From positions 33,725,958 through 33,782,907 of the forward strand of contig NC_057719.1 of the NCBI RefSeq assembly GCF_004010195.1: a stretch of DNA of 56,950 nucleotides, read 5' to 3'. Shown in pieces: positions 3,321 through 51,942 of this stretch. Position 1 is the stretch's first letter. Each line of letters begins with the position of its first letter. A program made the translations under genes and the position numbers. Source of the DNA: Chiloscyllium plagiosum. Lineage: Eukaryota. Under the pieces are notes generated by a model. That model did not search any database, was not told where the DNA came from, and saw nothing but the letters and a program-made list of their open reading frames with translations.

Positions 3321-3591
3321 GTGCATTTTGGGAAAGCAAATCTTAGCAGGACTTATACACTTAATGGTAAGGTCCTAGGGAGTGTTGCTGAACAAAGAGA
3401 CCTTGAAGTGCAGATTCATAGCTCCTTGAAAGTGGAGTCGCAGGTAGATAGGATAGTGAAGAAGGCGTTTGGTATATTTTCCTTTATAGGTCAGAGTATT
3501 GAGTACAGGAGTTGGGAGGTCATGTTGGAATATTGCGTGCAATTCTGGTCTCCTTCCTATCGCAAAGATGTTGTGAAACTTGAAAGGGTTC
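3321..3591 (+). repeat. Local duplicate of an internal CR1 segment (copy of ~1384-1635)
   Basis: near-identical to the post-gap CR1 including its internal deletion; flanked by 18-bp direct repeat CAACATTCACCCCTGTGC (3307-3324, 3592-3609). Confidence 0.85.
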
Positions 3592-4283: not shown

Positions 4284-4640
4284 GAGAAAGTGAGGACTGA
4301 AGATGCTGGAGAAACTGGAGTTTCTCCAGTTTCCTCATTTCCCCTCCCCCCACCTTGTCTCAGTCAAATCCCTCGAACTCAGCATCGCCTTCCTAACCTG
4401 CAATCTTCTTCCTGACCTCTCCGCCCCCACCCCACTCCGGTCTATCACCCTCACCTTGACCTCCTTCCACCTATCGCATTTCCAACGCCCCTCCCCCAAG
4501 TCTCTCCTCCCTACCTTTTATCTTAGCCTGCTGGACACACTTTCCTCATTCCTGAAGAAGGGCTTATGCCCGAAACGTCGATTCTCCTGTTCCTTGGATG
4601 CTGCCTGACCTGCTGTGCTTTTCCAGCAACACATTTTCAG
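4284..4640 (+). mobile_element. PLE pseudo-LTR fragment with short 5' inverted end
   Basis: pyrimidine-rich 3' region plus hammerhead core; starts with inverted GGAGAAAGTGAGGACTG; 15-bp TSD CTCA(T/C)AATGCCAGTG at 4269-4283 and 4641-4655. Confidence 0.85.
4552..4579 (+). ncRNA. Minimal hammerhead ribozyme motif (PLE-associated)
   Basis: CTGAAGA-A-GGGC(TTAT)GCCC-GAAA-CG-TC: intact CUGANGA and GAAA boxes, stem II, palindromic ACGT in place of stem III; stem I weak. Confidence 0.7.
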
Positions 4641-5539
4641 CTCACAATGCCAGTGACCAGGGTTCAATTCCAACCTTGGCCAACTGCCTGTGTGGTGTTT
4701 GCATGTTCTCCCTGTGTCTGCATGGGTTTCCTCTGGCTGCTCTGGTTTCCTCCCACAACCCAAAGATGTGCATATTAGGTGAATTGGCTGCTTTGCCCAT
4801 AGCATTAGTCAGGGGTAAATGTAGAAAAATAGGACGGGGAAATAGGTCTGGGTGGGTTACCCTTCAGAGGGTCAGTATGGACTTATTGGGCCTGTTTCCA
4901 CACTGTAGGGATTCTATGATTTAAACAAAACATGGTTGACATGTAGCTATGCTGCACCTTAGAGTGACATTACTTATTGTGACTGTTCTCTCACCCACAG
5001 AATCTCTAGTTGGCAGACACATATTGGACAACCTTCCCTTACTAGTTACTGATACATGATCATTACTGGAAAAACATGGGATTATGAAAAATGTCAATAA
5101 CTAATAGGTGGGTAATGAAATATCCAACCTGAATGTCAGTCAAAAATTAGAGAATAACACCCAATTGATGGCACATGCAATCAATCGGAAATTGTCAGCC
5201 TATGCCCAGAACCTAGATTGTAAAGCATACAAACTCCAATTGGCAATGAGCTGAAACAGATGTCAAATCAGAGCAATGCCACAACTATAGTCACCGAGTA
5301 TTCAGATTTCAAACAGAATGCAACCCAAAACAGCACATTTATCCATAGCCAGCATTCCGAAAACACACACCAGCATCTGGGCAAGAGTACTGTAGCTAAG
5401 TCTTGATGGATAATCAAATTACTGATGCATATTGGAGTCTTGTAAGTCTAATGCTTTGTATCAGAGCATTTTTAAACACAATGTTATTTCCTTTTGCAGT
5501 CATGTAAATTGTTTGATTCTTTATAAGTACATTTTTAGT

Positions 5540-6097: not shown

Positions 6098-7155
6098 ATC
6101 AGTTTTTATTCTGGATAAAAGCAAATTACTGCTGATGCTGGAATCTGAAACCAAAAGAGAAAATGCTGGAAAATCTCAGCAGGTCTGGCAGCATCTATAA
6201 GGAGAGAAAAGAGCTAACATTTTGAGTCTAACTGACCCTTTGTCAAAGCTAAAAAAAAGGGAGAAATAGGGAGATATTTATACTCAGCTGAGAGAAGGTG
6301 AGTCATGACTCCAGAAGCAAAGGTAGCAATAAAGAGGTGACAATGACAGTGCATAGAGAGATTATAGGGAGATTAGGAGCTGGGAATGACCAAGGCTGAA
6401 GCCAACGCTATGTGACAAAATATGTGGGGGATGTGGGGGGGGAATGGGTGAAGCAGAGGCAAATGGAAAACAGGGGAGAAGGGTAGGAAAGGGGGAAGAG
6501 GAGAGGAAAAAGGTGATGAGAGAGAGTGGGGAGCCAGAGAAAGAGAGACAACCAAGAAGTAAGAGGCACAGTACAGTGAAAAAAAAAGGATAAATAAATT
6601 AAAATAAAATTACGGAGCAGAATGAAAACAGAGGGGTCGAGATGGGGTAATCATTTGAAGTTGTTGAATTCAATGTTGAGACGGTAGGCTCAACACAGAC
6701 TGGACGAACAGCATCTCATCTTCTGACTAGGCACGTTACAGTCTGCCGGTCTCAACATTGAATTCAACAACTTCAGATGATCATCCCATCTCGACCCCTC
6801 TGTTTTCATTCTGGTCCGTAATTTTATTTAATTTATTTGATTTATCTTTTTTTATATTTTTTTCACTGTTCTGTACCTCTTACTTCTCGGTTGTCTCTCT
6901 TTCTCTCGCTCCCCACTCTCTCTCATCATCTTTTTCCTCTCATCTTCCCCCTTTACTACTCTTCTCCCCTGTTTTCCATTTTGCCTCTGCTTCACCCATT
7001 CTCCCCCCACATCCCCCACATATTTTGTCATATAGTACCGGCTCCAGCCTTGGTCATTCGCAGCTCCTAATCTCCCTATAATCTCTCTATGCACTGTTAT
7101 TATCCCCCTCTTTATTGCTACCTTTGCTTCTGCAGCCATGACTCACCTTATCTCA

Positions 7156-7368
7156 GGAGAAAGTGAGGACTGCACATGCTGGAGACCAGAGTTGAAAAAT
7201 GTGGTGCTGGAAAAACACAGCAGGACAGGCAGCATCCGAGGAGCAGGAGAATCGATGTTTTGGGCATAAACCCTTCTTCCTGAAGAAGGGTCTATGCCCG
7301 AAACGTCAATTCTCCTGCTCCTCCGATGCTGCCTGTCCTGCTGTGTTTTTCCAGCACCACATTTTTCA
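7156..7368. mobile_element. Fold-back mini-PLE nested in another PLE
   Basis: ~90-bp inverted arms centred on 7280-7281; 16-bp TSD ACTCAC(C/T)TT(A/C)TCTCAG at 7141-7156 and 7369-7384. Confidence 0.85.
7280..7307 (+). ncRNA. Minimal hammerhead ribozyme motif
   Basis: CTGAAGA-AGGGTCTATGCCC-GAAA-CGTC. Confidence 0.6.
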
Positions 7369-7569
7369 ACTCACTTTCTCTCAGCCCAGTATAAATACCT
7401 CCTTTGTTTTAGCTTTGACAAAGGGTCAGTTAGACTCAAAACGTCAGCTCTTTTCTCTCCTTACAGATGCTGCCAGAACTGCTGAGATTTTCCAGCATTT
7501 TCTCTTTTGGTATCAGCTTTTATCCACTGAGTTTAGAACAATAAGAGGTGACCAGCAAGAGTGCAACCA

Positions 7570-9800: not shown

Positions 9801-10130
9801 AGGTGGCATGGTGGCTCAGAGGTTAGCACTGCTGCCCGACAGTGTCGGGGACCTGGGTTTGATTCCAGCCTCGGATGACTGTCTGTGTGGAGTTTGCACG
9901 TTTTCCCGGTGTCTGTGTGGGTTTCCTCCAGGTTCTCCGGTTTCCTCCCACAGTCCAATGATGTGCAGGTTAGGTGAATTGGCCATGCAAAATTGCCCAT
10001 CGTGTTCAGGGGCAATATGTGCATTCGTCAAGGGGAATGGGTCTGGGTGGGTTACTGTTCAGAGGGTCGGTGTGGACTTGTTGGGCTGAAGGGCCTGTTT
10101 CCACACTGTAGGGATTCGGATTCTAATTCT
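9801..10130 (+). mobile_element. HE1-type SINE, full length
   Basis: GGTGGCTCAGAGGTTAGC A-box, GGTTTGATTCC B-box, CR1-like tail. Confidence 0.9.
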
Positions 10131-11009
10131 AAAAAAAATTTGACTTCCATTTCAAAGGTGGAGCCCATTAAGATACCAAAGGAAAATCTTACACAAATCT
10201 TGGCATAATGAGCTATTACTTCCTTCAAATACCCAGATGGAAACTATGACCTTTTAAAGAAAATCGTTCTACCTCTTTGCCTTCATTACTGAAGTGGATG
10301 GAAGTAACGTTTTTGTTGCCGTGTACTTGTTTGTCTGCAATGAGAAGTTTCAAAGACCGATGCACTTGTTTCAATAAAACTAAGTACACAGGTAGGGTTT
10401 GGCCCTGGGAAGAACTATTTAGATCTTGACGTGGGTACAAATCTAGATTTGAAAAAAATCGTTACCATCGGATGAACTAACCAATTTAAAAGAACATAGT
10501 GGGTTGATTGATTTAGAATATTGTGGAAATGTCTCCACTGCTATGGTGGATTTTTTCATGGCACTCGAAATATGATCAAAGTTTTCAGTTTGGATTGCTG
10601 GATGTGGATTGACCTAAAATCTTTTCAGTGAGGTGGAAGCTCTTAATGCAATTTTTTTTTCATGTAAGAGTGGCCTGCTGTCAGTATCGCAGTGAAGCAC
10701 ATTGGAAAGAGCTGCCTTTAGTCAACAATGCAGTGAGGCAAACCAGGAAGAATGGCCTACAGTCAATTTTTATTGAAACAATCAAGACCGACATCAATCT
10801 AATTTCATTGCCTGATGTTGGAAGGGGAGGAATTGAAGCCAGGAGGACTATCTTTTAATTAGTTGATGCTTATTCTATTATCAAGTTTTTACATTGTATG
10901 TACATTGGTGGTAAAGGTAATGGGATATATAAAAAGCAACATAAATAAGTGAACAATTCGAGTAAATAATTAACAAAAACTCATTAAGGACGACAGCACA
11001 TGTGGTGCA

Positions 11010-11195
11010 TCAAAGCTGTATCATATGGGATGGATACCTTTGTGATCCAGTGCTTACATATCCACGGTGAGGCTTTGAAGTTTGAGTTGGTTCAGCCCAG
11101 AGGTTGAGCTGGAGGCTGAACTAGACACTGCGATCGTGGAAGGGTGAACTTACCTGGATATTTGTACCAGGAGGCAGTCACAACTTATAGGATAG
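11010..11195 (+). mobile_element. Old CR1 ORF1 N-terminal relic
   Basis: degenerate GTTGAGCTGGAGGCTGAACTAGACACTGCG..TACCTGGAT..CAGGAGGCAGTCACA (VELEAEL..LR..YLD..QEAVT), comparable to 7900-8020. Confidence 0.55.
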
Positions 11196-11282
11196 GGTGT
11201 ACTGAGGCAGCATGGCGACAGAGCCAGTCAGTTGGCCTGTGAAGCCTGGAGCAGTGTTCTCGTTTCCTTGTGGAGTGGGCCC

Positions 11283-14200
11283 TGGTGTGGTGTGGGCTGG
11301 GAAGCCCGGAGTGGGACAAGATCTATGGCATGGCATGGGTGAGCGAGACATTCTCCATGGCTTGGCGTGGATTGAGAAGCCTGGAGTGGGGCACTCTCAG
11401 CAACATGTCATTGGCTGGGAAACCCAGAGTGGGTCACTCCCTGTGGCATGGTGTGGGCTGGGAAACCCAGAGTGGGTCACCTGTTGGCATGGCATGGGCT
11501 GGAAAGCCCAGAGTCAGTCACTTGTGGTGGCATGGTATGGGCAAGAGGGTCACTCTTGGTGATATGGTATGGGCTGGGAGGCCGAAAGTGGATTACTCCC
11601 TGCGGCATGGTGTGGGATGGGAAGCCCAGAGTAGATTACTCCCTGCTGCGTGGTGTGGGCTTGGAGGCCCAGAGTGGATTACTCCCTGCGGCAAGGTGTG
11701 GGCTGGGAAGCCCAGAATGGATCACTCCCTGCGGCATGGTGTGGGCTGGGAAGTCCAGAGTGGATCACTCCCTGCTGCGTGGTGTGGGCTTGGAGGCCCA
11801 GAGTGGATTACTCCCTGCGGTATGGTGTGGGCTGGGAGGCCCAGAGTGGATCACTCCCTGTGGCATGGTGTGGGCTGGGAGGCCCAGAGTGGATCACTCC
11901 CTGCTGCATGGGGTGGGCTGGGAAGCCCAGAGTGGATCACTCCCTGCAGAATGGTGTGGGCTGGGAGGCCCAGAGTGCATCACTCCCTGCAGCGTGGTGT
12001 GGGCTGGGAAGTCCAGATGGATCACCCCCTGAGGGAGGCCCAGAGTGGATTACTCCCTGCAGCGTGGTGTGGGCTGGGAGGCCCAGAGTGGATTATTCCC
12101 TGAGGGAGGCCCAGAGTGGATTACTCCCTACGGCATGGTGTGGGCTGGGAGGCCCAGAATGGATCACTCCCGACAGCGTGGTGTGGGCTGGGAGGCCCAG
12201 AGTGGATTATTCCCTGTGGGAGGCCCAGAGTGGATTACTCCCTGCGGCATGGTGTGGGCTTGGAGGCCAAGGGTGGATCACTCCCTGCGGCATGGTGTGG
12301 GCTGGATGGCCCAGAGTGGATTACTCCCCGTGATATGGTGTGGGCTGGGAAGCCCAGAGTGGATTACTCCCCGTGACATGGTGTGGGCTGGGAAGCCCAG
12401 AGTGGATTACGCCCCGTGACATGGTGTGGGCTGGGAGGCCAAGAGTGGATCACTCCCTGCGGCATGGTGTGGGCTGGGTGGCCCAGAGTGGATTACTCCC
12501 TTAGGCATAGTGTGGGCTGGGAGGCCCAGAGTGGTGTGGGCTGGGAGGCCAGAGTGGACCACTGCCTGCGGCATGGCGTGGGCTGGGAGGCCAAGAGTGG
12601 ATCACTCCCTGCGGCATGGTGTGGGCTGGGTGGCCCAGAGTGGATTACTCCCTAAGGCATAGTGTGGGCTGGGAGGCCCAGAGTGGATTACTCCCAGTGG
12701 CATGGTGTGCGCTAGGAAACCTAGAGTGAATCACTCCCTGCTGCATTGTGTGGTCTAGGAAGCCCAGAGTGGATCACTCCTGCAGCATGGTGTGGGCTGT
12801 GAGGCCCAGAGTGGATCACTCTCTGCGGCATGGCGTGGGCTGGGAGACCCAGAGTGGATCACTCCCTGCAGCGTGGTGTGGGCTGGGAGGTCCAGATGGA
12901 TCACTCCCTGAGGGAGGCCCAGAGTGGATTACTCGCTGCAGCGTGGTGTGGGCTGGGAAGCCCAGAGTGGATTACTCTCTGCGGCATGTTGTGGGCTGGG
13001 AGGCCCAGAGTGGATCACTCCCTGCGGCATGGTGTGGGCTGGGAGGCCCAGAGTGGATTACTCCCTGCGGCATGGTGTGGGCTGGGAGGCCCAGTGTGGA
13101 TTACTCCCTGCATCCTGGTGTGAGCTGGGAGGCCCAGAGTGGATCACTCCCTGCAGCATGGTGTGGGCTGGGAGGCTAGAGTGGATTACTCCCTGTGGCA
13201 TCGTGTGGGCTAGGAGGCCCAGAGTGGATTACTCCCTGCGGCATGGTGTGGGCTGGGAGGCCCAGAGTGGATCATTCCCTGCAGCGTGGTGTGGGCTGGG
13301 AGGCCCAGATGGATCACTCCCTGAGGGAGGCCCAGAGTGGATTACTCCCTGCAGCGTGGTGTGGGCTGGGAAGCCCAGAGTGGATTACTCCCTGCGGCAT
13401 GTTGTGGGCTGTGAGGCCCAGAGTGGATTACTCCCTGCGGCGTGGTGTGAGCTGGGAGGCTAGAGTGGATCACTCCCTGCTGCATGGTGTGGGCTGGGAG
13501 GTCCAGAATGGATTACTCCCTGCGGCGTGGTGTGGGCTGGGAGGCTAGAGTGGATCACTCCCTGCTGCATGGTGTGGGCTGGGAGGCCCAGAGTGGATTA
13601 CTCCCTGCATCATGGTGTGAGCTGGGAGGCCCAGAGTGGATCACTCCCTGCAGCGTGGTGTGGGCTGGGAGGATGGAGTGGATTACTCCCTGTGGCATGG
13701 CGCGGGCTGGGAGGCCCAGAGTGGATTACTCCCTGCAGCATGGCGTGGGCTGGGAGGCCCAGAGTGGATTATTCCCTGTGGCATGGTGTGGGCTGTGAGG
13801 CCCAGAGTGGATTATTCCGTCAGGGAGGCCCAGAGTGAATTGCTCCCTGCATCATGTTGTGGGCTGGGAGGTCCAGAGTGGATTATTCCCTGTGGGAGGC
13901 CCAGAGTGGATTACTTCCCGTGACATGGTGTGGGCTGGGAAGCCCAGAGTAGATTACTCCCCGTGACATGGTGTGGGATGGGAAGCCCAGAGTGGATTAC
14001 TCCCTGCGGCATGGTGATGGCTGGGAGGCCCAGAGTGGATCACTCCCTGCGGCATGGTGTAGGCTGGGACGCCCAGTGTGGATTACTCTCTGTGGCATGG
14101 TGTGGGCTGGGAGGCCCAGAATGGATCACTCTCTGCAGCGTGGTGTGGGCTGGGAGGCGCAGAGTGGATCACTCCCTGCAGCGTGGTGTGGGCTTGGAGG

Positions 14201-14705
14201 CCCAGAGTGGATCACACCCTGCAGTGTGGTGTGGGCTGGGAGGCCAAGAGTGGATTATTCCCTGAGGGAGGCCCAGAGTGGATCACTCCCTGAAGTGTGG
14301 TGTGGGCTGGGAGGCCCAGAGTGGATTACTCTCTGCGGCATGCTGTGTGCTGGGAGGCCCAGAGTGGATTACTCCCTGCGGCATGGTGTGGGCTGGGAGG
14401 CCCAGAGTGGATTACTCCCTGTGGCGTGGTGTGGGCTGGGAGGCCCAGATGGATCACTCCCTGAAGGAGGCCCAGAGTGGATTACTCCCTGCAGCGTGGT
14501 GTGGGCTGGGAAGCCCAGAGTGGATCACTCCCTGCAGCGTGGTGTGGGCTGGGAGGCCCAGAGTGGATTATTCCCTGTGGGAGGTCCAGAGTGGATTACT
14601 CCCTGCGGCATGGTGTGAGCTGGGAAGCCCAGAGTGGATTACTCCCTGCGGCATGGTGTGGGCTGGGAATCCCAGAACAGGATTCTGGTGATGGCATGGT
14701 GTTGT
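11283..14705. repeat. 43-bp GC-rich minisatellite (roughly 80 units)
   Basis: unit GAGGCCCAGAGTGGAT(T/C)ACTCCCTGCGGCATGGTGTGGGCTGG; period 43 (e.g. CCCAGAG at 12961 and 13004); shortened ~27-bp variants; diverged units at left end. Confidence 0.97.
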
Positions 14706-16361
14706 AGCGGGGATGGCGAAGTTGGACTCTTTTTAAGTTTTCTTTTGTTTATTTTACTCTAAGTTAACGTGAATGGCGTCTATGTACGTGTGATTGTACA
14801 CACTTTTCACGGCATTTTACATTGAATACACACGACAATAAAGGATATTCTAAACTTTCATCTAAATGAGGAATTAATTGAAGGTTTATAAGACAATTTT
14901 TTAGACCAACATGTTCTGGTACTGACCAGAGAGCAGTCTGTTCTAGACATGCTATTGACAAACAAGACAGGATTATAAAATCATAAAAACACTCCTGGGT
15001 TACAACAACCATAAAATCATTGAATGTTACGAACAGTTTAAGGGAAAGAAGTATGGATTCAACACTAATATTTTAAATTTAAAGAAGGGCAACTAGAAAA
15101 AATATAACTGGTAGATCAGTTTAACAGATTGGTCAATAGGGATGCGGCAGCAAACAGTTAAATGGATTTTCCAGAAAATGCAGAATACGTGCATTCCAAA
15201 GAAAGAAGAGAAATTCTAAGGGATGATCCTGCAAACTGTGGTGAACTAAAAAAAAATTCAAAAATCATATCAAACTCAAAGAAAAGGTTTATGTGCAAAT
15301 ATAGCTGGCAGGTCAGAAAATTGGGCAGACTATGAAAAAAAAACAAAGAAAAGAATTCCTAAAAGATGAATAAGGAGAGAAAAATGAGAAGGTTAGCCAT
15401 AAATATAAAAACAGAAAGGAAACATACGCAAATACTTTAAAAAGAACAAAAAGAGAACAATGTGTTGGTCTTATAGAAAGTGAGTCTGGGGAATTAATAA
15501 AGGAGGATAAAGATATGGCAGACAACTTGAAGAGATATTTTGTGTTGATCCTCACTGAAGAGAATACAAATAACATCCCAGAGATAGCTATAAATAAGGA
15601 TTTCAAAGGGATAGAGGAATCCAGGAAAATTACAATTACTAGGGAATTAGTATGGAATAAATAGTTAGAACTGCAAGTTGACAAGTGCCCAGGTCTTAAT
15701 GGATTTTATCTTCGGTTCTTAAAACAAGTAACTAGTGAAATAGTTGATGCATCAGTTGTAATTTTTCAAAACTCATTCAGGGTAATTTTCTTTATATTGA
15801 AAAAAAGCTATTGCTATTTATTCAAAAGGGGAGAGAGGCAGAAAGCAGGAAACTGCAGGGCTGTTAACATTTGTCATAAGGAACATGCGATAAACTCTTA
15901 TTAAAGATGTTATAACAGGAAACTTGGATAAGTTCAAAGTAATCAGGCAGTCAACATAGTTTTGTCAAAAGGAAATCATATTTAACTAATTTATTTGAGT
16001 GTTTTGAATAAGTAACTTGTGCTGTAAATAAAGGAGAATCGGTGGATTCATTGTGCATTCATTTCACACTAAAAGGTTATTGTAGAAAATGAAAACAAAT
16101 GATGCAAAGGTAACATATACACATAGGGAGAAGATTGGCTCACTAACAGGAAGTAAATAGTAGGAATTAGTCACTGTTTTTCAGGCTGGCAGGATGTCAG
16201 AAGTGTGCCACGGTGCTTGGCACTGAGGCCTCAAATTTTTACAATTAATGTAAATAATTTGAATGAAGGATTGAAAGTGTGGTAGCTAAATCTGCTGGTG
16301 ACTCTAAAGTAGACAGGGAGGTGAGCTGTGAGGTTGAAATAATGAGCTGCCAAGACATATA

Positions 16362-19714: not shown

Positions 19715-20925
19715 TTGATTGATTGACTGATTGATTGTCACATGTACCGAAGTACAGTGAAAAGCTTTGTTTACAAGCAGGACAGGCAGATCATAGTAAG
19801 CAAGGGTGTGCAGATCAAAAAGACTTAGACAGAGGCATATTGTTATGTTGCACAGGGCGTACGCGAGGCAAGATCAGCATCAGCAAGATCCGCAATATTT
19901 GAGGCTATAGAGCCCATTCATCAATCTAATAATGACTGGGAAGAAATTGATCCTGAATCTGCTGGTGCATGCGTTCAGGCTTCTGTATCCTCTGCCCGAT
20001 GGAAGAGATTGTAAGAGAGCATTACTGAGGTGTAATGGGTCTATGATGATGTTGACAGCCTTTCCACAGCAGTGAGCCATGTAAATGGGATCCATGGATG
20101 GAAGGTTAGCTTCTGTGCTGGTCTGGGCTGTGCACACCACCTTCTGTAGCTTGTTATGGTCCTCGGCAGAGCAGTTGCCATATCAGGCCGTTATGCACCC
20201 GGACATGCTTTCAATACTGCATCTGTAGAAGTTGGTGAGGCTCCTTATTGACATGGAAATGTGTTGCTGGAGAAGCGCAGCAGGTCAGGCAGCATCTAGG
20301 GAACAGGAGAATCGACGTTTCGGGCATTAGCCCTTCTTCAGGAATGCCCGAAATGCTAATGCCCGAAACGTCGATTCTCCTGTTCCCTAGATGCTGCCTG
20401 ACCTGCTGCGCTTCTCCAGCAACACATTTCCATCTCTGATCTCCAGCATCTGCAGACCTCATTTTCTCCTTATTGGCATGCCAAATTTCCTGAGCTGCCT
20501 GAGGAAGAAGAGGTAGGGTTGTGCTTTCTTGACCATCACATCTACGTAGCATGTCCAGACTGATTTATGGTTATCGTCACTCTGAGGACCTTGATGTTCT
20601 CCAACCTTTAAACCTCAGTTCCATCAATGTAGATGGGGACACATTCTTCTTCTTTCTTTCTGAAGTTAATGACCAGTTCTTTAGTTTTGCTGACATTGAG
20701 AGAGAGGTTGTTCTCATTGCACCACATCACCAAACCCTCTATCTTCCTTCTGTTTTTCGACTCATCATTGTTAGATATCCAACCCACCATGGTGATGTCG
20801 TCAGCAGACTTGTAGATGTGTTCATTTGGAATTTGGTGATACTGTCGTGGGTGTACAGGGAGTACAGTAGGGGATTGAGGACATATCCTTGGGGGGGTCC
20901 AGTGTTGAATGTTATTTTAGAGGAG
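19715..20925 (-). mobile_element. Rex1/Babar-type LINE, 5'-truncated
   Basis: TGPPQGYVLNPLLYSLYTHD, WCNENNLSLNVSKTKELVINFRK, LPSGRGYRSL..TSRFRINFFP; 3' end CTTTTCACTGTACTTCGGTACATGTGACAAT plus (CAAT)n tail. Confidence 0.85.
20256..20469. mobile_element. Fold-back mini-PLE nested in Rex1, with intact hammerhead core on minus strand (20314-20341)
   Basis: perfect 79-bp inverted repeat 20253-20331 / 20355-20433; TSD CTCCTTATTG(A/G)CATG at 20241-20255 and 20466-20480. Confidence 0.9.
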
Positions 20926-26664: not shown

Positions 26665-28600
26665 AACTGGGTTAGTCGGCCAAAGATTGGCAGATGGATT
26701 TTAATTTAGGTAAATGCAAGATGATGCATGTTGGTAAGACAAATCAGGGCAGGACTTACACAGTTAATGGTAGTGTCCTGCAGAGTGTTGTCTAACACAG
26801 ACACCTAAGGCTGCAGGTTTTTAGTTCCTTGAAAGTGGAGTTGCAGGGTGGCGAAGGCAGTGTTTGGCATGTTTGCATTCCTTGGTCAGAGCATGGTGTA
26901 CAGGAGTTGGGATATCATGCAACAGTGGCACGGTAGCTCACTGTGCATGGGACCAGGGTTCAATTTCAGCCTCGGGTGACTGTCTGTGTGGAGTTTGCAC
27001 ATTCTCCACTTGTCTGCGTGGGCTTCCTCCAGGTGGTCCGGTTTCCTCTCACAGTCCAAAGATGTGCAAGTTAGGTGAATTGCCCACAGTGTTCAGGGAT
27101 GTGAAGGCAAGGTGCATTAGTCAGGGGAAATGTAGAGTGGTACAGGAATGGTTCTGGGTGGAATACTCTTCAGAGGATCGGTGTAGATTGTTGGGCCAAA
27201 TGGCCTGTTCAAACACTATGGAGATTCAATGATGCTGTGAGCTATTGGTAAGGCCACATTTGGAGTACTGCATACAATTCTGGGCACCCTGCAATAGGAA
27301 GGATATTATCAAAATGGAAAGGGTGCAAAAAAGATTGACAAGGATGTTCCCGAGACTGGAGGGTTTGAGTTAAAAGGAGAGGCTGGATAGGAGCAGTTCC
27401 CTGTAACGTCGGAGGCTGAGGGGTGACCTTATAGAGGTTCATAAAATCATGAACGGCAAAGATAAGGTGAATAGTCAAGGTCTTTTCCCCAGGGTGGAGG
27501 AGTCCAAAACTAGAGGGCATAGTCTTAAGGTGAGAGGTGAAAGACTTAAAAGGGACCTGGGGAGCATCGTTATCACAGAACATATATGGAACAAGCTGCC
27601 AGAGGAAGTGGTAGAGGAGAGTACAATTAGAATATTTAAAAGACACTTGGAAAAGTACATGGATAGGAAAGGTTTAGATGGATATGGGCCAAATGCAGGC
27701 AAATGGGACTAGTTCATTTAATAAACCTGGTCAGCGCGGACAATTGGACTGAAGCTCCTCACTCCTTTCAGCATTCCACCAGCGACTCCCACATTAGGTC
27801 CTGTGGTGAAAGGGTTAAAAATTATGTCCCAATACATGTGTGTTTTTTAGCCTTGCTCTGCTGTTCACATGAATGTTTATATCTGGAAAAGAGTATATCA
27901 GCTGGAAAAGTCTCCAGTTCGGTGAGTCTGCTCTGGGGTTACGTTTAACCGCCGAGCGTGGGTTGTTGGCAACCGCTCTACGAGAACTGACGGCTCCCAG
28001 TTCCGGTAACATGTAGAGTGAGTATAAGCCAGACCCGTTGTAAGTATGAGACCTGGTTGTGGCGACGCTGCGGGGAATAAAATGCTCATATTCTAGCAGA
28101 CTCGCCTCTTGGTCGTTTGTTCTGTGTCAGACTACTGTCCTACGAACCTGACCTTGAGAATTTTTTAAAACAGAGGGTTCGAGTTAAAAGGAGAGGCTGG
28201 ATAGGAGCAGTTCCCTGTAACGTCGGAGGCTGAGGGGTGACCTTATAAAGGTTCATAAAATCATGAACGGCAAAGATAAGGTGAATAGTCAAGGTCTTTT
28301 CCCCAGGGCAGAGGAGTCCAAAACTAGAGGGCATAGTCTTAAGGTGAGAGGTGAAAGACTTAAAAGGGACCTGGGGAGCATCGTTATCACAGAACATATA
28401 TGGAACAAGCTGCCAGAGGAAGTGGTAGAGGAGAGTACAATTAGAATATTTAAAAGACACTTGGAAAAGTACATGGATAGGAAAGGTTTAGATGGATATG
28501 GGCCAAATGCAGGCAAATGGGACTAGTTCATTTAATAAACCTGGTCAGCGCGGACAATTGGACTGAAGGGTCCGTTTCTGTATACATGACTCTATGACTT
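26665..28600 (+). mobile_element. CR1 3' part with nested SINE (26923-27232) and a 396-bp internal duplication around an insert
   Basis: [29 protein letters not shown] motifs; duplicated ORFs 27449 and 28263 offset by 814; tail ATGACTCTATGAC. Confidence 0.85.
27802..28172 (+). mobile_element. Putative young solo-LTR-like sequence
   Basis: TG...CA ends (TGTGGTGAAA / TTTTAAAACA), TATAA at 28023-28027, AATAAA at 28076-28081, CpG-rich compared with surroundings. Confidence 0.6.
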
Positions 28601-33668: not shown

Positions 33669-34277
33669 CTGAAGTTTAACTTCAGTAGCGGGGAAACTAG
33701 AAACAATTATTTGGGATAGAATCAGTAGTCACATGGAAACTTTTGTGTTGGTTTGGAAGATTTAGCATGTATTCCTAAAGGATAAATTTTGTTTAATTAT
33801 CTTTCTTTGAAGAGGTAACAGAAAGGCTCAATGACGGTAATGTTGATGTGTTATTCATGTATTTCCAGAAGGCATTTATTAAGGTGCCAAAGAATCTTTC
33901 TGTGAGGAAAATTATGGATCATGGTAAAAAAGGGGACAATAGCAACTTGATACAGAATTAACTGAATAATAGGAAACAGAGAATAAAGATCAATGGAATT
34001 TTTTGGTGGGGAATGGTTTGTAATAGTGTTCCGAGGTGTCTGTATTGGGGCCTTTACCTTCCCTGATGTATATTAATGAATTGGATCTTGGTGTGCAAGG
34101 GACAATTTACAAGTTTTCAGATGACACAAAACTTGGAAGAATTACAAACTGTGAGTAGAAGATGTGAGAGGTCCAAAAGAAATTGACAGGTTGATATAGT
34201 GGGTGAATCGGTGGCAGATATGGTTTAATGCTGAGATGTGAGGACGATGGGGTACACTTTGGAAGAACATTGAAAAG

Positions 34278-34401
34278 CACTCCCTGAAGTGCAAAGCTAT
34301 GGACTCCTGACCAAGCACACCCTAACCAGTCTGATATTGGAGACTGCCCTTGACTTACTCTGTCAGGAACACTGGGCTGAAGGGTGTTCCCTTCAACTTA
34401 A
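34278..34401 (-). repeat. Inverted copy of 35827-35950 inserted between 102-bp direct repeats
   Basis: CACTCCCTGAAGTGCAAAGC...TTCAACTTAA is the reverse complement of TTAAGTTGAA...GCAGTTCAGGGAGTG; flanks 34180-34281 and 34416-34517 identical. Confidence 0.9.
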
Positions 34402-36579
34402 TAAGGGATACAAGTAAATTGACAGGTTGATATAGTGGGTGAATCGGTGGCAGATATGGTTTAATGCTGAGATGTGAGGACGATGGGGTACACTTTGGAA
34501 GAACATTGAAAAGCACTATAAATAAGGGATACAAGTCTAAAAACAGAAGGACCTGGATGTATATGCGCACACGTAATTGAAGATGGTCATGCCATTGAAG
34601 GTGGCAAGTCGAAAGAGCAGTTAATAGAGCATGTGGTGTTCAAGGTTTTATAAACAGGGATATAGAGTACAAGATCAAGGAGCTGATGTTGAATTTGTAT
34701 GAAACACTTGTTTGATCTCAGCTGTACAGTTGTAAGCAATATATTGTATGAAAGATGTTATACATTGGAGAGAGTTCAGAAGCGATTTACAAGATTGTTC
34801 CAGTAATGAGAAAGTTTAGTAATGAGGATGGATTGAAGAAGTCGGGACTGTTCTTCGGAGAGAAGAAGGCTGACAAGAAATTTAAAAGGGGTTTTTGAAA
34901 TCATGGATAAAGTAGATAGGAAGAAACTGATCCCATTCATAAAAGGAAGAAGAATGAGAGGATATAGATTTAAAGTAATGTTTAAAAGCAACAAGAGTGA
35001 TGTGACAAAATTGGAGAGTAGTTAGAGTCTTGTACTCACTGCCTGGAGGTGTGATGAAGGCTGGTTGAAATGAGCTTTTCAACAGGGCACTAGATGATTA
35101 TTTGGATAAAAATAATGTGTGAGGGTGTGGGAGAAAGTAGGAGATTGGTGCAATGTCAAGGTGCTGTTTTGAAGATCTGGTTCAGCAGGCACATTGGGCA
35201 GAATGGCCTCCTTTTACACTGTAGCAATTCTACGATGTTGTGATCTTGAATACTCAGTACTAAAATCTCAGGGCACACTGCATGGGTAGTGCATACACAC
35301 ACCTCCCATCCATGGACATCCAACATCTACCAACCTTTCCTCATATTTATGGCCCATCTCTGATCCATGAACAGTTCACTGCACAGCTTCTGGCACGTAC
35401 AGGCAACAATCATTGGAATGCTCTTGTACAGACACTTGGTGCATCAGGAGAATAGAATTGAAAGGTAATTTATTGTCAGATTGAGGTCATGAATTGTTCC
35501 AAGCTGCCTGATTTCCCAATTAGTGCTCACTCACTTTGTGCCTACTTCCATGCTCACAGCATCGCTGCCTTATCTTGCCTTGTCCTTTCGCACTTTGCCC
35601 CCTGAACTGCACTTTAAAGTCTCACATACATCGGTCTTGCCGAAACAAAGCTAGACAGCTTGTCATACTAGTCAGCAGCCATCAGTCAAAGGGGTGGACG
35701 TGTTTCTGAACAGCACCATGCTACCTCAATTTCGTCCCTGCACCATGTGTCACATTTACAGCTAACGCACTGCACATGCTAGAAACAAATGGCCAGGTCA
35801 CAAAGTCAAAGGAAAATAGTCCTCACTTAAGTTGAAGGGAACACCCTTCAGCCCAGTGTTCCTGACAGAGTAAGTCAAGGGCAATCTCCAATATCAGACT
35901 GGTTGGGGTGTGCTTGGTCAGGAGTCCATAGCTTTGCAGTTCAGGGAGTGGTGCACAGTCAACCCTGTTTTATTCAGTACAATCAGTTCAGGGAGTCTTC
36001 TGAAGACATTTGAGGTGCTGTATAGAAATCAGTCAGGCATCTGGCTACTCATCATTCGGGGCCGCCCAGTTAAGTCACTCAAGGAGGTGGACCACAGTCG
36101 CTCCTGGAGGTCTGTCCATGAAATGTTAAGAGGGAGTACATCAGGAACTACATCTCTGTGAGAGGGATGCTTAGGAACTTAATTGTGGGGATTGCAGTCA
36201 GGAGACTGGGATCAAGAAGGGATTAAAACACAGAAGTGATGCAACTCAATATATATGGGGTGATATCGTACAGAATGGCAGGGAAAAAGATCATGTGGGT
36301 GGGGGCATTATTGACTGTAAGCAGCATGCTGGCTTTTATTGGGGGACAACACATTACTAGACCTGGCTTCTTTACATTGCGGGGGAGGAGGGTCAATTAG
36401 ACAAATGACGAGTGGGAACTTAGGGAGGTACAAATCTTATGAGGTTAATGAAGCTGGGTCCTGGGAATTGGTCATTTAGGTTTAGGGATTCACCAAGATG
36501 AAAAAGGCTGAGCCTGAGACTCACTGTTTAAGGAAGGATCCCTGTTGGCCTTCATCGTGGTGTAAGTAATAACACACCT

Positions 36580-50703: not shown

Positions 50704-51446
50704 AAAATGTGGTGCTGGAAAAACACAGCAGGCCAGGCAGCATCCAAGGAGCAGGAGAATCGACGCTTCGGGCATAAGCCCTTCTTTAGGAATGAGGCTG
50801 GTGTGTCAAGATATGAGGGATATATTTCCCTCCCCACCTCTATCAGCGTTCAGGAGAGACCACTCCCTCCGCGACTCCCTCGTCAGGTACACACCCCCCA
50901 CCAACCCAACCTCCACACCCGGCACCTTCCCCTGCAACCGCAAGAGGTGCAAAACTTGTGCCCACACCTCCCCCCTCACCTCCCTCCAAGGCCCCAATGG
51001 ATTTTTCCATATCCATCGCAAATTCACCTGCACCTCCACACACATCATTTACTATATCCGCTGCACCCGATGTGGTCTCCTCTACATTGAGGAGACAGGC
51101 CACCTACTTGCAGAACATTTCAGGGAACACCTCTGGGACACCCGCACCAACCAACCCAACCGCCCCATGGCTGAACACTTTAACTCTCCCTCCCACTCCG
51201 CCAAGGACATGCAGATCCTTGGCTTCCTCCATCGCCAGACCCTGGCCACATAGCGTCACTCCCCCAAATTCCCTCCCCCCTACCTTTTATCTCAGCCCAC
51301 TTGGCACCCCCGCTTCAGTCCTGAAGAAGGGCTTATGCCCGAAATGTCGATTCTCCTGCTCCTCGGATGCTGCCTGGCCTGCTGTGTTTTTCCAGGACCA
51401 CATTTTTCAGGTCTGGTCTCCAGCATCTGCAGTCCTCACTTTCTCC
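50704..51446 (+). mobile_element. Penelope-like element: 5' inverted pseudo-LTR, GIY-YIG region, 3' pseudo-LTR
   Basis: ORF 50792-51253 PCNRKRCKTC..FTCTSTHIIYYIRCTRCGLLYIEETG; 16-bp TSD CCTTTTGAGGAGGTGA at 50688-50703 and 51445-51460. Confidence 0.92.
51317..51352 (+). ncRNA. Minimal hammerhead ribozyme motif with stem I
   Basis: AGTC-CTGAAGA-AGGGCTTATGCCC-GAAA-TG-TC-GATT; AGTC/GATT can pair as stem I. Confidence 0.65.
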
Positions 51447-51942
51447 TTTTGAGGAGGTGACAAGTATGATTGATGAGGGAAAGCGTTGTCTACATGGATT
51501 TTAGTAAGATATTTGATAAGCTACCTCACGGCAGGCTGGTACAAACATAGAGTGTCATGGGATCCAGGGTGAGCTGGCTAGGTGGATACTGAACTGTTTT
51601 AGTCATACAAGACAGAGAGTACTGGTGGAATGTTGCTTTTCAGAATGGAGATCAGTAACTAATTTTGTTCTGCAGGGATTAGTGCTGGGACCTTTGTTGT
51701 TTGTAATATATACATAGATGATGTAGGAAAATGTAGGTGGTCTGATTAGTAAGTTTGGACTGACACAAAAATTGAGGGAGTTAAAGACAGTGAGAAGGAT
51801 TGTCAAAGGATACAGTGGGATATTGATTGAAGATTTGGGCAAATAATTGGTAGATGAAGTATAATCCAGACAAACGTGAGGTGTTGCACTTTGAAAGATC
51901 AAATTCAGCTGTAAATTATATAATAAATAGTAGACTTAATAG

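What the first reader, a model, noticed from the sequence alone, without database searches (positions are those of the whole stretch)
11200..14852. Candidate SVA-like retroelement: a 43-bp VNTR ending in a Rex1/Babar-type 3' tail
Seen: the array is followed by a ~150-bp unique tail ending CTTTTCACGGCATTTTACATTGAATACACACGACAATAAA (14803-14842). This resembles the 3' end of the Rex1/Babar LINE in this same window (minus 19733-19764, CTTTTCACTGTACTTCGGTACATGTGACAAT). The cassette sits inside an old CR1, with an ORF1 relic on the left and an ORF2 endonuclease relic on the right, so it looks inserted rather than native. Established: SINEs borrow the 3' tail of their partner LINE, and hominoid SVA carries an internal GC-rich VNTR. 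Inference: a non-autonomous element mobilised by Rex1/Babar that carries and expands a minisatellite. I see no TSD, and part of the host CR1 is missing.
Basis: partly seen in the sequence, partly recalled or inferred. Interest (0 to 1): 0.75.

Follow-up and report, generated by a model that had tools for sequence, protein, structure and literature searches.

The report
Rex1-ended shark retroposon seeding minisatellites
This is an old, front-truncated copy of a dispersed, protein-less repeat of a shark-type genome whose ends resemble those of Rex1 jumping genes; it likely borrowed their copying enzyme, and its short internal repeat likely grew into a 3.4-kb minisatellite after insertion, a layout that parallels the ape SVA element with unrelated parts.

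Summary
Confirmed in outline. Window 11204-14850 is a 5'-truncated copy of a dispersed non-coding family (roughly 900 copies): a ~220-nt head starting CAAGATGG, 0 to >100 units of 34-67 bp, and a ~150-nt tail. Of 20 long arrays found with the unit alone, 19 carry the head or tail. A profile of the family's last 49 nt hits the exact 3' end of 21/25 and 19/29 Rex1 loci, and full-length Rex1 here starts with the same motif. No tRNA/5S/7SL head was found. Target-site duplications are at most faint. No coding LINE with the identical end was found (0/70 loci). Most copies hold 1-3 units. The window's 84-unit array is younger than its insertion, whose junctions are shared with two related species, so it expanded in place. 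Some arrays on different contigs share identical units despite 20-30% divergent heads and tails, which suggests exchange between loci. It works like SVA or EhSINE1 but is not an SVA. Eight paper searches found no description; Repbase and Dfam could not be checked. This scan noted the same kind of element elsewhere in this genome.

The parts
10703..11205 (+). Left host flank: 5' part of an old CR1-type LINE (ORF1 relic near 10960-11200)
   Evidence: Matches 19 dispersed loci at 65-75%, mostly ending at 11194-11205; ORF1 label from recalled motifs
11204..11240 (+). Last ~37 nt of the family's ~220-nt head; the first ~185 nt, including the CAAGATGG start, are missing in this copy. 2-nt overlap with host sequence at 11204-11205
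   Evidence: Head profile alignment; position
11241..11298 (+). Linker that resembles a degenerate repeat unit; likely the source of the unit by internal duplication
   Evidence: Family alignment; origin inferred
11299..14700 (+). GC-rich VNTR, 84 units (61x43 bp, 10x27-28 bp with a fixed 15-bp deletion), degenerate at the 5' end, with repeated multi-unit blocks
14703..14850 (+). Family tail (~150 nt), 14.5% diverged from family consensus
   Evidence: Tail profile E 1.5e-39
14803..14850 (+). Rex1-type terminal stem-loop region followed by the GGATATTC end; the stem is decayed in this copy (no fold predicted)
14851..16359 (+). Right host flank: CR1-type ORF2 relic starting inside the endonuclease region
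   Evidence: Collinear match in L165 from 14861; translations; label from recalled motifs
19725..20918 (-). Comparator, not part of the element: 5'-truncated Rex1/Babar relic (RT end + 3' UTR + TCAA repeats), interrupted by a palindromic insert near 20257-20470

Best explanation
The stretch is one decayed, 5'-truncated copy of a dispersed protein-less family (head, variable GC-rich repeat, tail) that was likely copied by the enzyme of a Rex1/Babar-clade LINE and whose few internal units likely expanded to 84 in place after insertion. Shown: family anatomy, shared exact 3' end, 5' truncations, terminal sequence shared with Rex1 at both ends, array younger than its flanks, junctions shared with related species. 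Inferred: transcription by RNA polymerase II from the LINE-like head (T-runs and no B box argue against Pol III); binding of the 3' stem-loop by Rex1 ORF2 protein and target-primed reverse transcription; source elements carrying only a few units; later growth by DNA-level slippage or unequal exchange; a ~1.3-kb host deletion at or soon after insertion.
For: Co-occurrence: of 20 arrays picked by unit alone, 17 have a head, 15 a tail, 13 both, 19 at least one; 20 of 23 head-picked loci have a tail match (2 partial); 23 of 29 tail-picked loci have a unit, against 0 unit motifs in the other 53 kb of the window. Full-length copies start at one position. 5' boundaries vary while the 3' end is fixed. 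The terminal profile hits the 3' end of 21 of 25 Rex1-A loci (16 at E<=0.01) and 19 of 29 Rex1-B loci (5 at E<=0.01); reversed controls gave 1 and 0 weak hits. Consensus ends share an 11-nt and a 16-nt block around a variable loop, predicted to form a hairpin. Three full-length Rex1 copies begin (CAA)GATGGC with GCTCC about 25 nt later; in the element head it is 24 nt later. 25 of 40 published consensus rows with this motif are Rex1, 13 L2, 2 Crack, 0 CR1. No Rfam family or tRNA; B box in 0 of 45 heads, TTTT in 45 of 45. Unit count among 42 head+tail copies not picked by array: median 2, range 0-13. Star-like tree with long arrays on separate long branches. Window units differ 7.5% from their consensus, only 1.2% as singletons, against 14.5% for the tail. 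The 3' junction is in organism B at about 96.5% and the 5' junction in organism C at about 94.5%.
Against: No coding LINE carries the identical end: 0 of 70 sampled of 188 exact GGATATTC-end hits, with control 25 of 25. The loop and terminal microsatellite differ from both Rex1 families found. Beyond the first ~40 nt the head does not align to Rex1 5' ends. The start motif is also found in L2 and Crack elements. TSD evidence is faint: unanchored 5.5 vs 5.3 nt in 33 copies; anchored 4.14 vs 3.77 nt, p 0.01, only 2 of 43 at 8 nt or more. Unit class tracks end class (19:3 vs 7:13, p 0.001), and four 46-bp arrays share identical units, so some array content is inherited or exchanged rather than purely local. 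Rex1 copies examined (80-88% alike) look younger than the element (tails 75.5% alike).
Confidence: 0.72

Rival explanations
1. It is a true bipartite, internally deleted Rex1: head and tail both descend from one older Rex1 lineage, with the coding region replaced by the repeat. This is a stronger version of the best explanation.
For: Both termini share motif and spacing with Rex1. Several sibling non-coding families share the same two termini, and one locus (L176) is a ~160-nt element of start plus end only.
Against: The head profile has no hit in three Rex1 5' regions, and pairwise scores are near shuffled values. The tail upstream of the last ~45 nt does not resemble either Rex1 3' UTR. The start motif is shared with L2 and Crack.
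Confidence: 0.4
2. Long arrays were carried by retrotransposition, as in young SVA: source elements already held tens of units.
For: Unit class is tied to end class and partly clustered on the tree (T class, 2 of 500 shuffles). L056, L058, L063 and L068 have consensus units 1-4 nt apart and share whole identical units.
Against: Heads and tails of those same copies are only 68-79% alike where measured over more than 100 nt. Singleton divergence inside 16 arrays is 0.7-3.2% against 11-26% for tails. The window unit is at least 8 changes from any other array and shares no 36-mer with 19 others. Median unit count is 2.
Confidence: 0.12
3. The mobiliser was CR1 or L2, not Rex1; the shared end is convergent or a relic.
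For: The main end type runs into TATTC repeats like the CR1-type end at 10110-10135 (sequence). No Rex1 ORF was found before that end. The known shark SINEs use CR1/L2 partners (PMC3747384 table passages; PMC5499810 passages).
Against: The terminal profile hits no CR1-type end in the 57-kb window, only the Rex1 end. The tail scores at shuffle level against the CR1-type end. The second end type (TTCAA repeats) matches Rex1-B.
Confidence: 0.1
4. An ordinary local minisatellite that lies beside a LINE fragment by chance.
For: The single-copy tail alignment is weak, and this array's unit variant is private.
Against: Fixed head-unit-tail order at dozens of unlinked loci with unrelated flanks.
Confidence: 0.02

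Closest known systems
Hominoid VNTR composites SVA, LAVA, PVA, FVA (PMC4432496, passages; PMC5753468, passages)
   Same: Non-coding, LINE-dependent, central GC-rich VNTR of 30-50 bp units between a head and a tail; VNTR remodelled at the DNA level.
   Different: No CT-hexamer or Alu-like head, no SINE-R, no poly(A) end, no clear TSDs. The partner is likely Rex1, through a shared stem-loop, not L1. Most copies hold only 1-3 units, and the family is old.
EhSINE1 of Entamoeba histolytica (PMC2996970, passages)
   Same: 500-600 bp non-coding element with conserved termini, a variable number of internal repeats and a short 3' stretch shared with its LINE.
   Different: Up to four 26-27 nt repeats and clear TSDs there; here units are 34-67 bp and can exceed 100 copies. 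Different host and LINE clade.
Bipartite ORF-less non-autonomous LINEs: RIME, NARTc, Bov-A, RTESINE, Vingi derivatives (PMC5786205, passages)
   Same: Both LINE termini, no ORF, presumed Pol II transcription.
   Different: The paper reports them only from RTE, Ingi, Vingi and R2. Here the likeness to Rex1 is limited to ~40 nt at each end, and a VNTR fills the middle.
SINE-derived satellites (sSat) of squamates (PMC10702118, abstract and Discussion)
   Same: Tandem arrays grown from part of a dispersed retroelement at many loci, with element sequence at the array ends and homogenisation within and between loci.
   Different: Parents there are SINE families (Squam1-3), and arrays mostly keep one element end. 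Here arrays usually keep both ends and the unit is a regular part of the element.
SINE2-5_NV / Rex1-24_NV of Nematostella (PMC3747384, table passage)
   Same: A non-autonomous element paired with a Rex1 LINE by its 3' end; the only Rex1 mention in that review.
   Different: It has a tRNA-derived head; no VNTR is given in the table passage I read.

Membership tests
SVA / VNTR composites | Central GC-rich VNTR of 30-50 bp units | tested here: met
   43-bp units, about 62% GC
SVA / VNTR composites | 5' CT-hexamer repeat and Alu-like region | tested here: not met
   Head consensus has no hexamer array; no Rfam hit in 5 full-length loci; no direct alignment to Alu was run
SVA / VNTR composites | Poly(A) end, TSDs, L1 mobilisation | tested here: not met
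   Ends run into TATTC or TTCAA repeats; TSDs faint; end shared with Rex1
SINE | Head derived from a Pol III RNA (tRNA, 7SL, 5S) with internal promoter boxes | tested here: not met
   Rfam: one chance-level hit in 5 loci; ARAGORN 0 of 13; B box 0 of 45, loose A-box pattern 8 of 45, TTTT 45 of 45. Old copies lower the sensitivity
SINE | 3' tail shared with a partner LINE | tested here: met
   Terminal profile hits Rex1 3' ends, 21 of 25 and 19 of 29; partner identified to clade only
Bipartite non-autonomous LINE | No ORF | tested here: met
   No Rex1 protein match adjoining the tail in 29 loci or within 1.2 kb upstream in 70 loci; full-length copies are about 0.45-0.6 kb without long arrays
Bipartite non-autonomous LINE | 5' part alignable to the 5' end of the parent LINE | tested here: inconclusive
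   Same start motif and spacing, but no alignment beyond it to 3 full-length Rex1 copies of one family; other Rex1 lineages not surveyed
Bipartite non-autonomous LINE | Pol II transcription and mobilisation in trans by the parent LINE | not testable with these tools
   Needs transcript mapping and a retrotransposition assay
Rex1/Babar LINE (autonomous) | Endonuclease and reverse transcriptase ORF | tested here: not met
   0 of 70 against control 25 of 25
Retroelement-derived satellite (sSat type) | Tandem array made from part of a dispersed element, at many loci, homogenised after insertion | tested here: met
   the parent is not a tRNA SINE
A family already in Repbase or Dfam | Match to a deposited consensus | not testable with these tools

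The most novel reading that the evidence does not exclude
Sharks evolved, independently of apes, a clan of Pol II VNTR-composite retroposons built on the two termini of Rex1. Rex1 would be a fifth LINE clade to yield bipartite non-autonomous elements. Several sibling families each grew their own VNTR, and their dead copies form a genome-wide network of minisatellites that still swap units between chromosomes.
Probability: 0.33. Interest if true: 0.66.

Novelty: new variant of a known kind. Interest (0 to 1): 0.47.

Why it matters
It gives a non-primate vertebrate case of the head-VNTR-tail layout, so one can ask whether an internal GC-rich repeat helps a non-autonomous element or merely rides in it. 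It points to Rex1 as a helper LINE in vertebrates; the review table read lists only a sea-anemone pair, and the 2018 survey lists no Rex1 bipartite elements. Hundreds of same-origin arrays of one age class, from 0 to over 100 units, with orthologues in related species, are a natural experiment on minisatellite birth, growth and exchange between loci. The single copy is dead, and each ingredient has precedent, which limits the surprise.

Tried and rejected
Single-copy alignment of the window tail to the window Rex1 end: weak, not used as proof. Search for a coding LINE with the identical end: none in 29 loci or 70 of 188 loci; the control read 0 of 25 through a parsing fault and was redone. Head against Rex1 5' regions: no alignment beyond the motif. 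The idea that an internal copy of the start motif near the 3' end of sibling families is a Rex1 5' remnant: its profile did not hit the three Rex1 starts. tRNA/Rfam origin of the head: nothing. TSDs: no clear signal (one search timed out). Empty orthologous site: not found; both relatives tested carry the insertion. Shared flanks among 19 long arrays: one unrelated repeat match only. RNAalifold on decayed copies gave no stem for the element alignment; the hairpin is predicted on the consensus. Expression: no RNA holder listed, and 0 reads laid from 6% of one RNA run; neither is a test. Pfam on the host CR1 fragments: no hits. A first end-class count was faulty and was redone. Literature: eight searches found no description of this family. 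Supplement cells of PMC13343379 are cut at 400 characters, so published Rex1 3' ends were not seen.
Full report
OBSERVATION. The array is real: 43-bp period over 11413-14676, about 62% GC against about 40% around it. A full parse gives 84 units from 11299 to 14700: 61 of 43 bp, 10 of 27-28 bp carrying one fixed 15-bp deletion, degenerate units at the 5' end, and multi-unit blocks that recur (for example near 11963, 12842, 13255, 14395). The minus-strand comparator is a Rex1-type relic: PF09004, with homologues bearing RVT_1 and PF09004 in shark annotations. That the genome is a shark's is inferred from those homologues and its repeats.

A FAMILY, NOT A SINGLE LOCUS. The tail is dispersed: 40 of 40 scored candidates matched, and 23 of the 29 other loci fetched have at least one unit upstream. 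Twelve of them gave a shared ~220-nt head that starts at CAAGATGG and contains long T/C runs. Independent checks follow. Of 20 long arrays found with the unit alone, 17 have the head (15 nearly whole), 15 the tail, 13 both and 19 at least one; in two of the five without a tail the array runs off the fetched stretch. Of 23 head-picked loci, after 6 duplicates were dropped, 20 have a tail match, two of them partial. Full-length copies start within a few bases of one position. Among 29 exact matches to a terminal pattern, the 5' boundary varies and seven begin inside the tail, as expected of incomplete reverse transcription. Those 29 hits and the mismatch rate in 34 copies not picked by the tail give about 900 copies, a rough figure. 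The window copy keeps only the last ~37 nt of the head.

THE REX1 LINK. At family level it holds. A profile of the last 49 nt of 29 copies hits the exact 3' end of 21 of 25 loci of the window's Rex1 family and 19 of 29 loci of a second Rex1 family (16 and 5 at E<=0.01), with three stray hits and one weak hit in reversed controls. In the whole window it hits only the element end and the Rex1 end. The consensus ends share two blocks of 11 and 16 nt around a loop that differs by family, and they fold as the same hairpin. At the other end, three full-length Rex1 copies traced in this genome begin with the same motif (one lacks its first bases) and have GCTCC about 25 nt later, against 24 nt in the head. 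In the supplement of PMC13343379 (first 400 characters of each row seen), 40 rows contain the motif near their start: 25 Rex1, 13 L2, 2 Crack, no CR1. Against: the head does not align to these Rex1 5' regions beyond the motif. No coding LINE precedes the commonest end type in 70 of 188 exact hits, while the control scores 25 of 25. Only 7 of those 70 are this family; most of the rest are sibling non-coding families with the same terminus. Siblings also share the start, and some have their own VNTRs of about 29, 34 or 40 bp. So the partner is placed to clade, and is probably an older lineage than the two sampled.

NOT A SINE, NOT AN SVA. No Rfam family in 5 loci, no tRNA in 13, no B box in 45 heads and TTTT in all 45. 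Pol II transcription is inferred. Ends run into TATTC or TTCAA repeats, not poly(A). TSDs are faint: no excess unanchored; a small excess anchored at the start (4.14 vs 3.77 nt, p 0.01), with two 8-9 nt candidates in 43 copies.

WHEN THE ARRAY GREW. Among 42 head-plus-tail copies not picked by array, the median is 2 units (range 0-13; the 1.5-kb flanks bias against long ones). A tree of 48 heads plus tails is star-like, with terminal branches near 0.19 and long arrays scattered over it. The window's tail is 14.5% from the family consensus, while its units are 7.5% from their own consensus and only 1.2% of sites are singletons. Fifteen other arrays give 0.7-3.2%. The window unit is at least 8 changes from any other array and shares no 36-mer with 19 others. 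Contigs from organism B bridge the 3' junction (21 differences in ~600 nt), and one from organism C spans the whole 5' junction (36 in 658). So the insertion and the host deletion predate these splits, while the array's present content looks younger. Unit class does follow end class (p 0.001), so source elements carried their own unit version. Four 46-bp arrays on three contigs share whole identical units and exact runs of 60-70 nt, although their heads and tails are 68-79% alike where measured over more than 100 nt. Exchange between loci is my reading; preferential growth of unmutated ancestral units is the alternative. The window array shows no such sharing.

HOST SITE. Left-flank homology to a CR1-type family ends at 11205 and the element begins at 11204. 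In the one relative locus of 19 that shows both sides at this junction, about 1.3 kb lies between them; a second locus has a shorter spacing. The loss occurred either with insertion or later, together with the head. No empty site was found.

COMPARISON AND NOVELTY. It works like SVA in layout, and the SVA/LAVA VNTR is also remodelled at the DNA level (PMC4432496, passages), but it has none of SVA's parts. EhSINE1 (PMC2996970, passages) is the nearest match in anatomy. Bipartite non-autonomous LINEs are reported from RTE, Ingi, Vingi and R2 only (PMC5786205, passages). Arrays grown from retroelements are known in squamates (PMC10702118, abstract and Discussion). One Rex1-paired SINE is tabulated, in a sea anemone (PMC3747384, passages). 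A shark SINE paper has no mention of Rex or tandem repeats (PMC5499810, term search), nor does a hagfish SINE paper (PMC7245038, term search). Rex1 features were read in PMC6274825 (passages and section 4). Eight searches found no description of this family. Repbase and Dfam could not be searched, so it may be deposited unnamed. Earlier notes of this scan describe similar elements elsewhere in this genome; they gave paper leads and are not counted as support.

VERDICT. A real, apparently undescribed variant: a non-coding retroposon with Rex1-type ends and an internal VNTR, likely Rex1-mobilised, whose copies seed locus-specific minisatellites. Confidence 0.72, interest 0.47.

Noticed in passing
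L056 (G000:C36), L058 and L063 (C3), L068 (C14); also L061/L062 (C10): Arrays of 46-bp units share identical whole units and exact 60-70 nt runs across contigs while heads and tails are 20-30% apart. All four lie within 10 Mb of a contig end. Suggests exchange of units between loci.
   Followed up: partly
L175-L204, L205-L234, L300-L339: A clan of sibling non-coding families shares the same start motif and terminal stem-loop with different loops and bodies. Several carry their own VNTRs (L175 about 29 bp, L219 40 bp, L234 34 bp). L176 is a ~160-nt start-plus-end element.
   Followed up: partly
Last 40-115 nt of 43 of 70 loci with the GGATATTC end; window 14783-14792: A second copy of the start-like motif, partly palindromic, lies just before the terminal hairpin in sibling families, with a weaker version in this family. 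Three of 29 truncated copies (L127, L129, L130) begin right at it. Its profile did not hit Rex1 starts.
   Followed up: partly
window 20257-20470 (also near 7155-7372, 4547-4645, 51300-51450): A ~200-nt palindromic repeat interrupts the Rex1 relic and recurs many times in the window; looks like a MITE or fold-back element.
   Followed up: no
window 27359-27754 and 28173-28568; 1384-1636 and 3339-3591; 34180-34281 and 34416-34517; 34278-34401 inverted at 35827-35950: Very recent local duplications, 98-100% identical, 100-400 nt long.
   Followed up: no
L169-L172: Four CR1-type loci on different contigs give identical alignment coordinates and identity to the left flank, pointing to a young, near-identical subfamily or duplicated segment.
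   Followed up: no
L116, L016: The terminal 11-12 nt are repeated once after the end, as from slippage during priming of reverse transcription.
   Followed up: no
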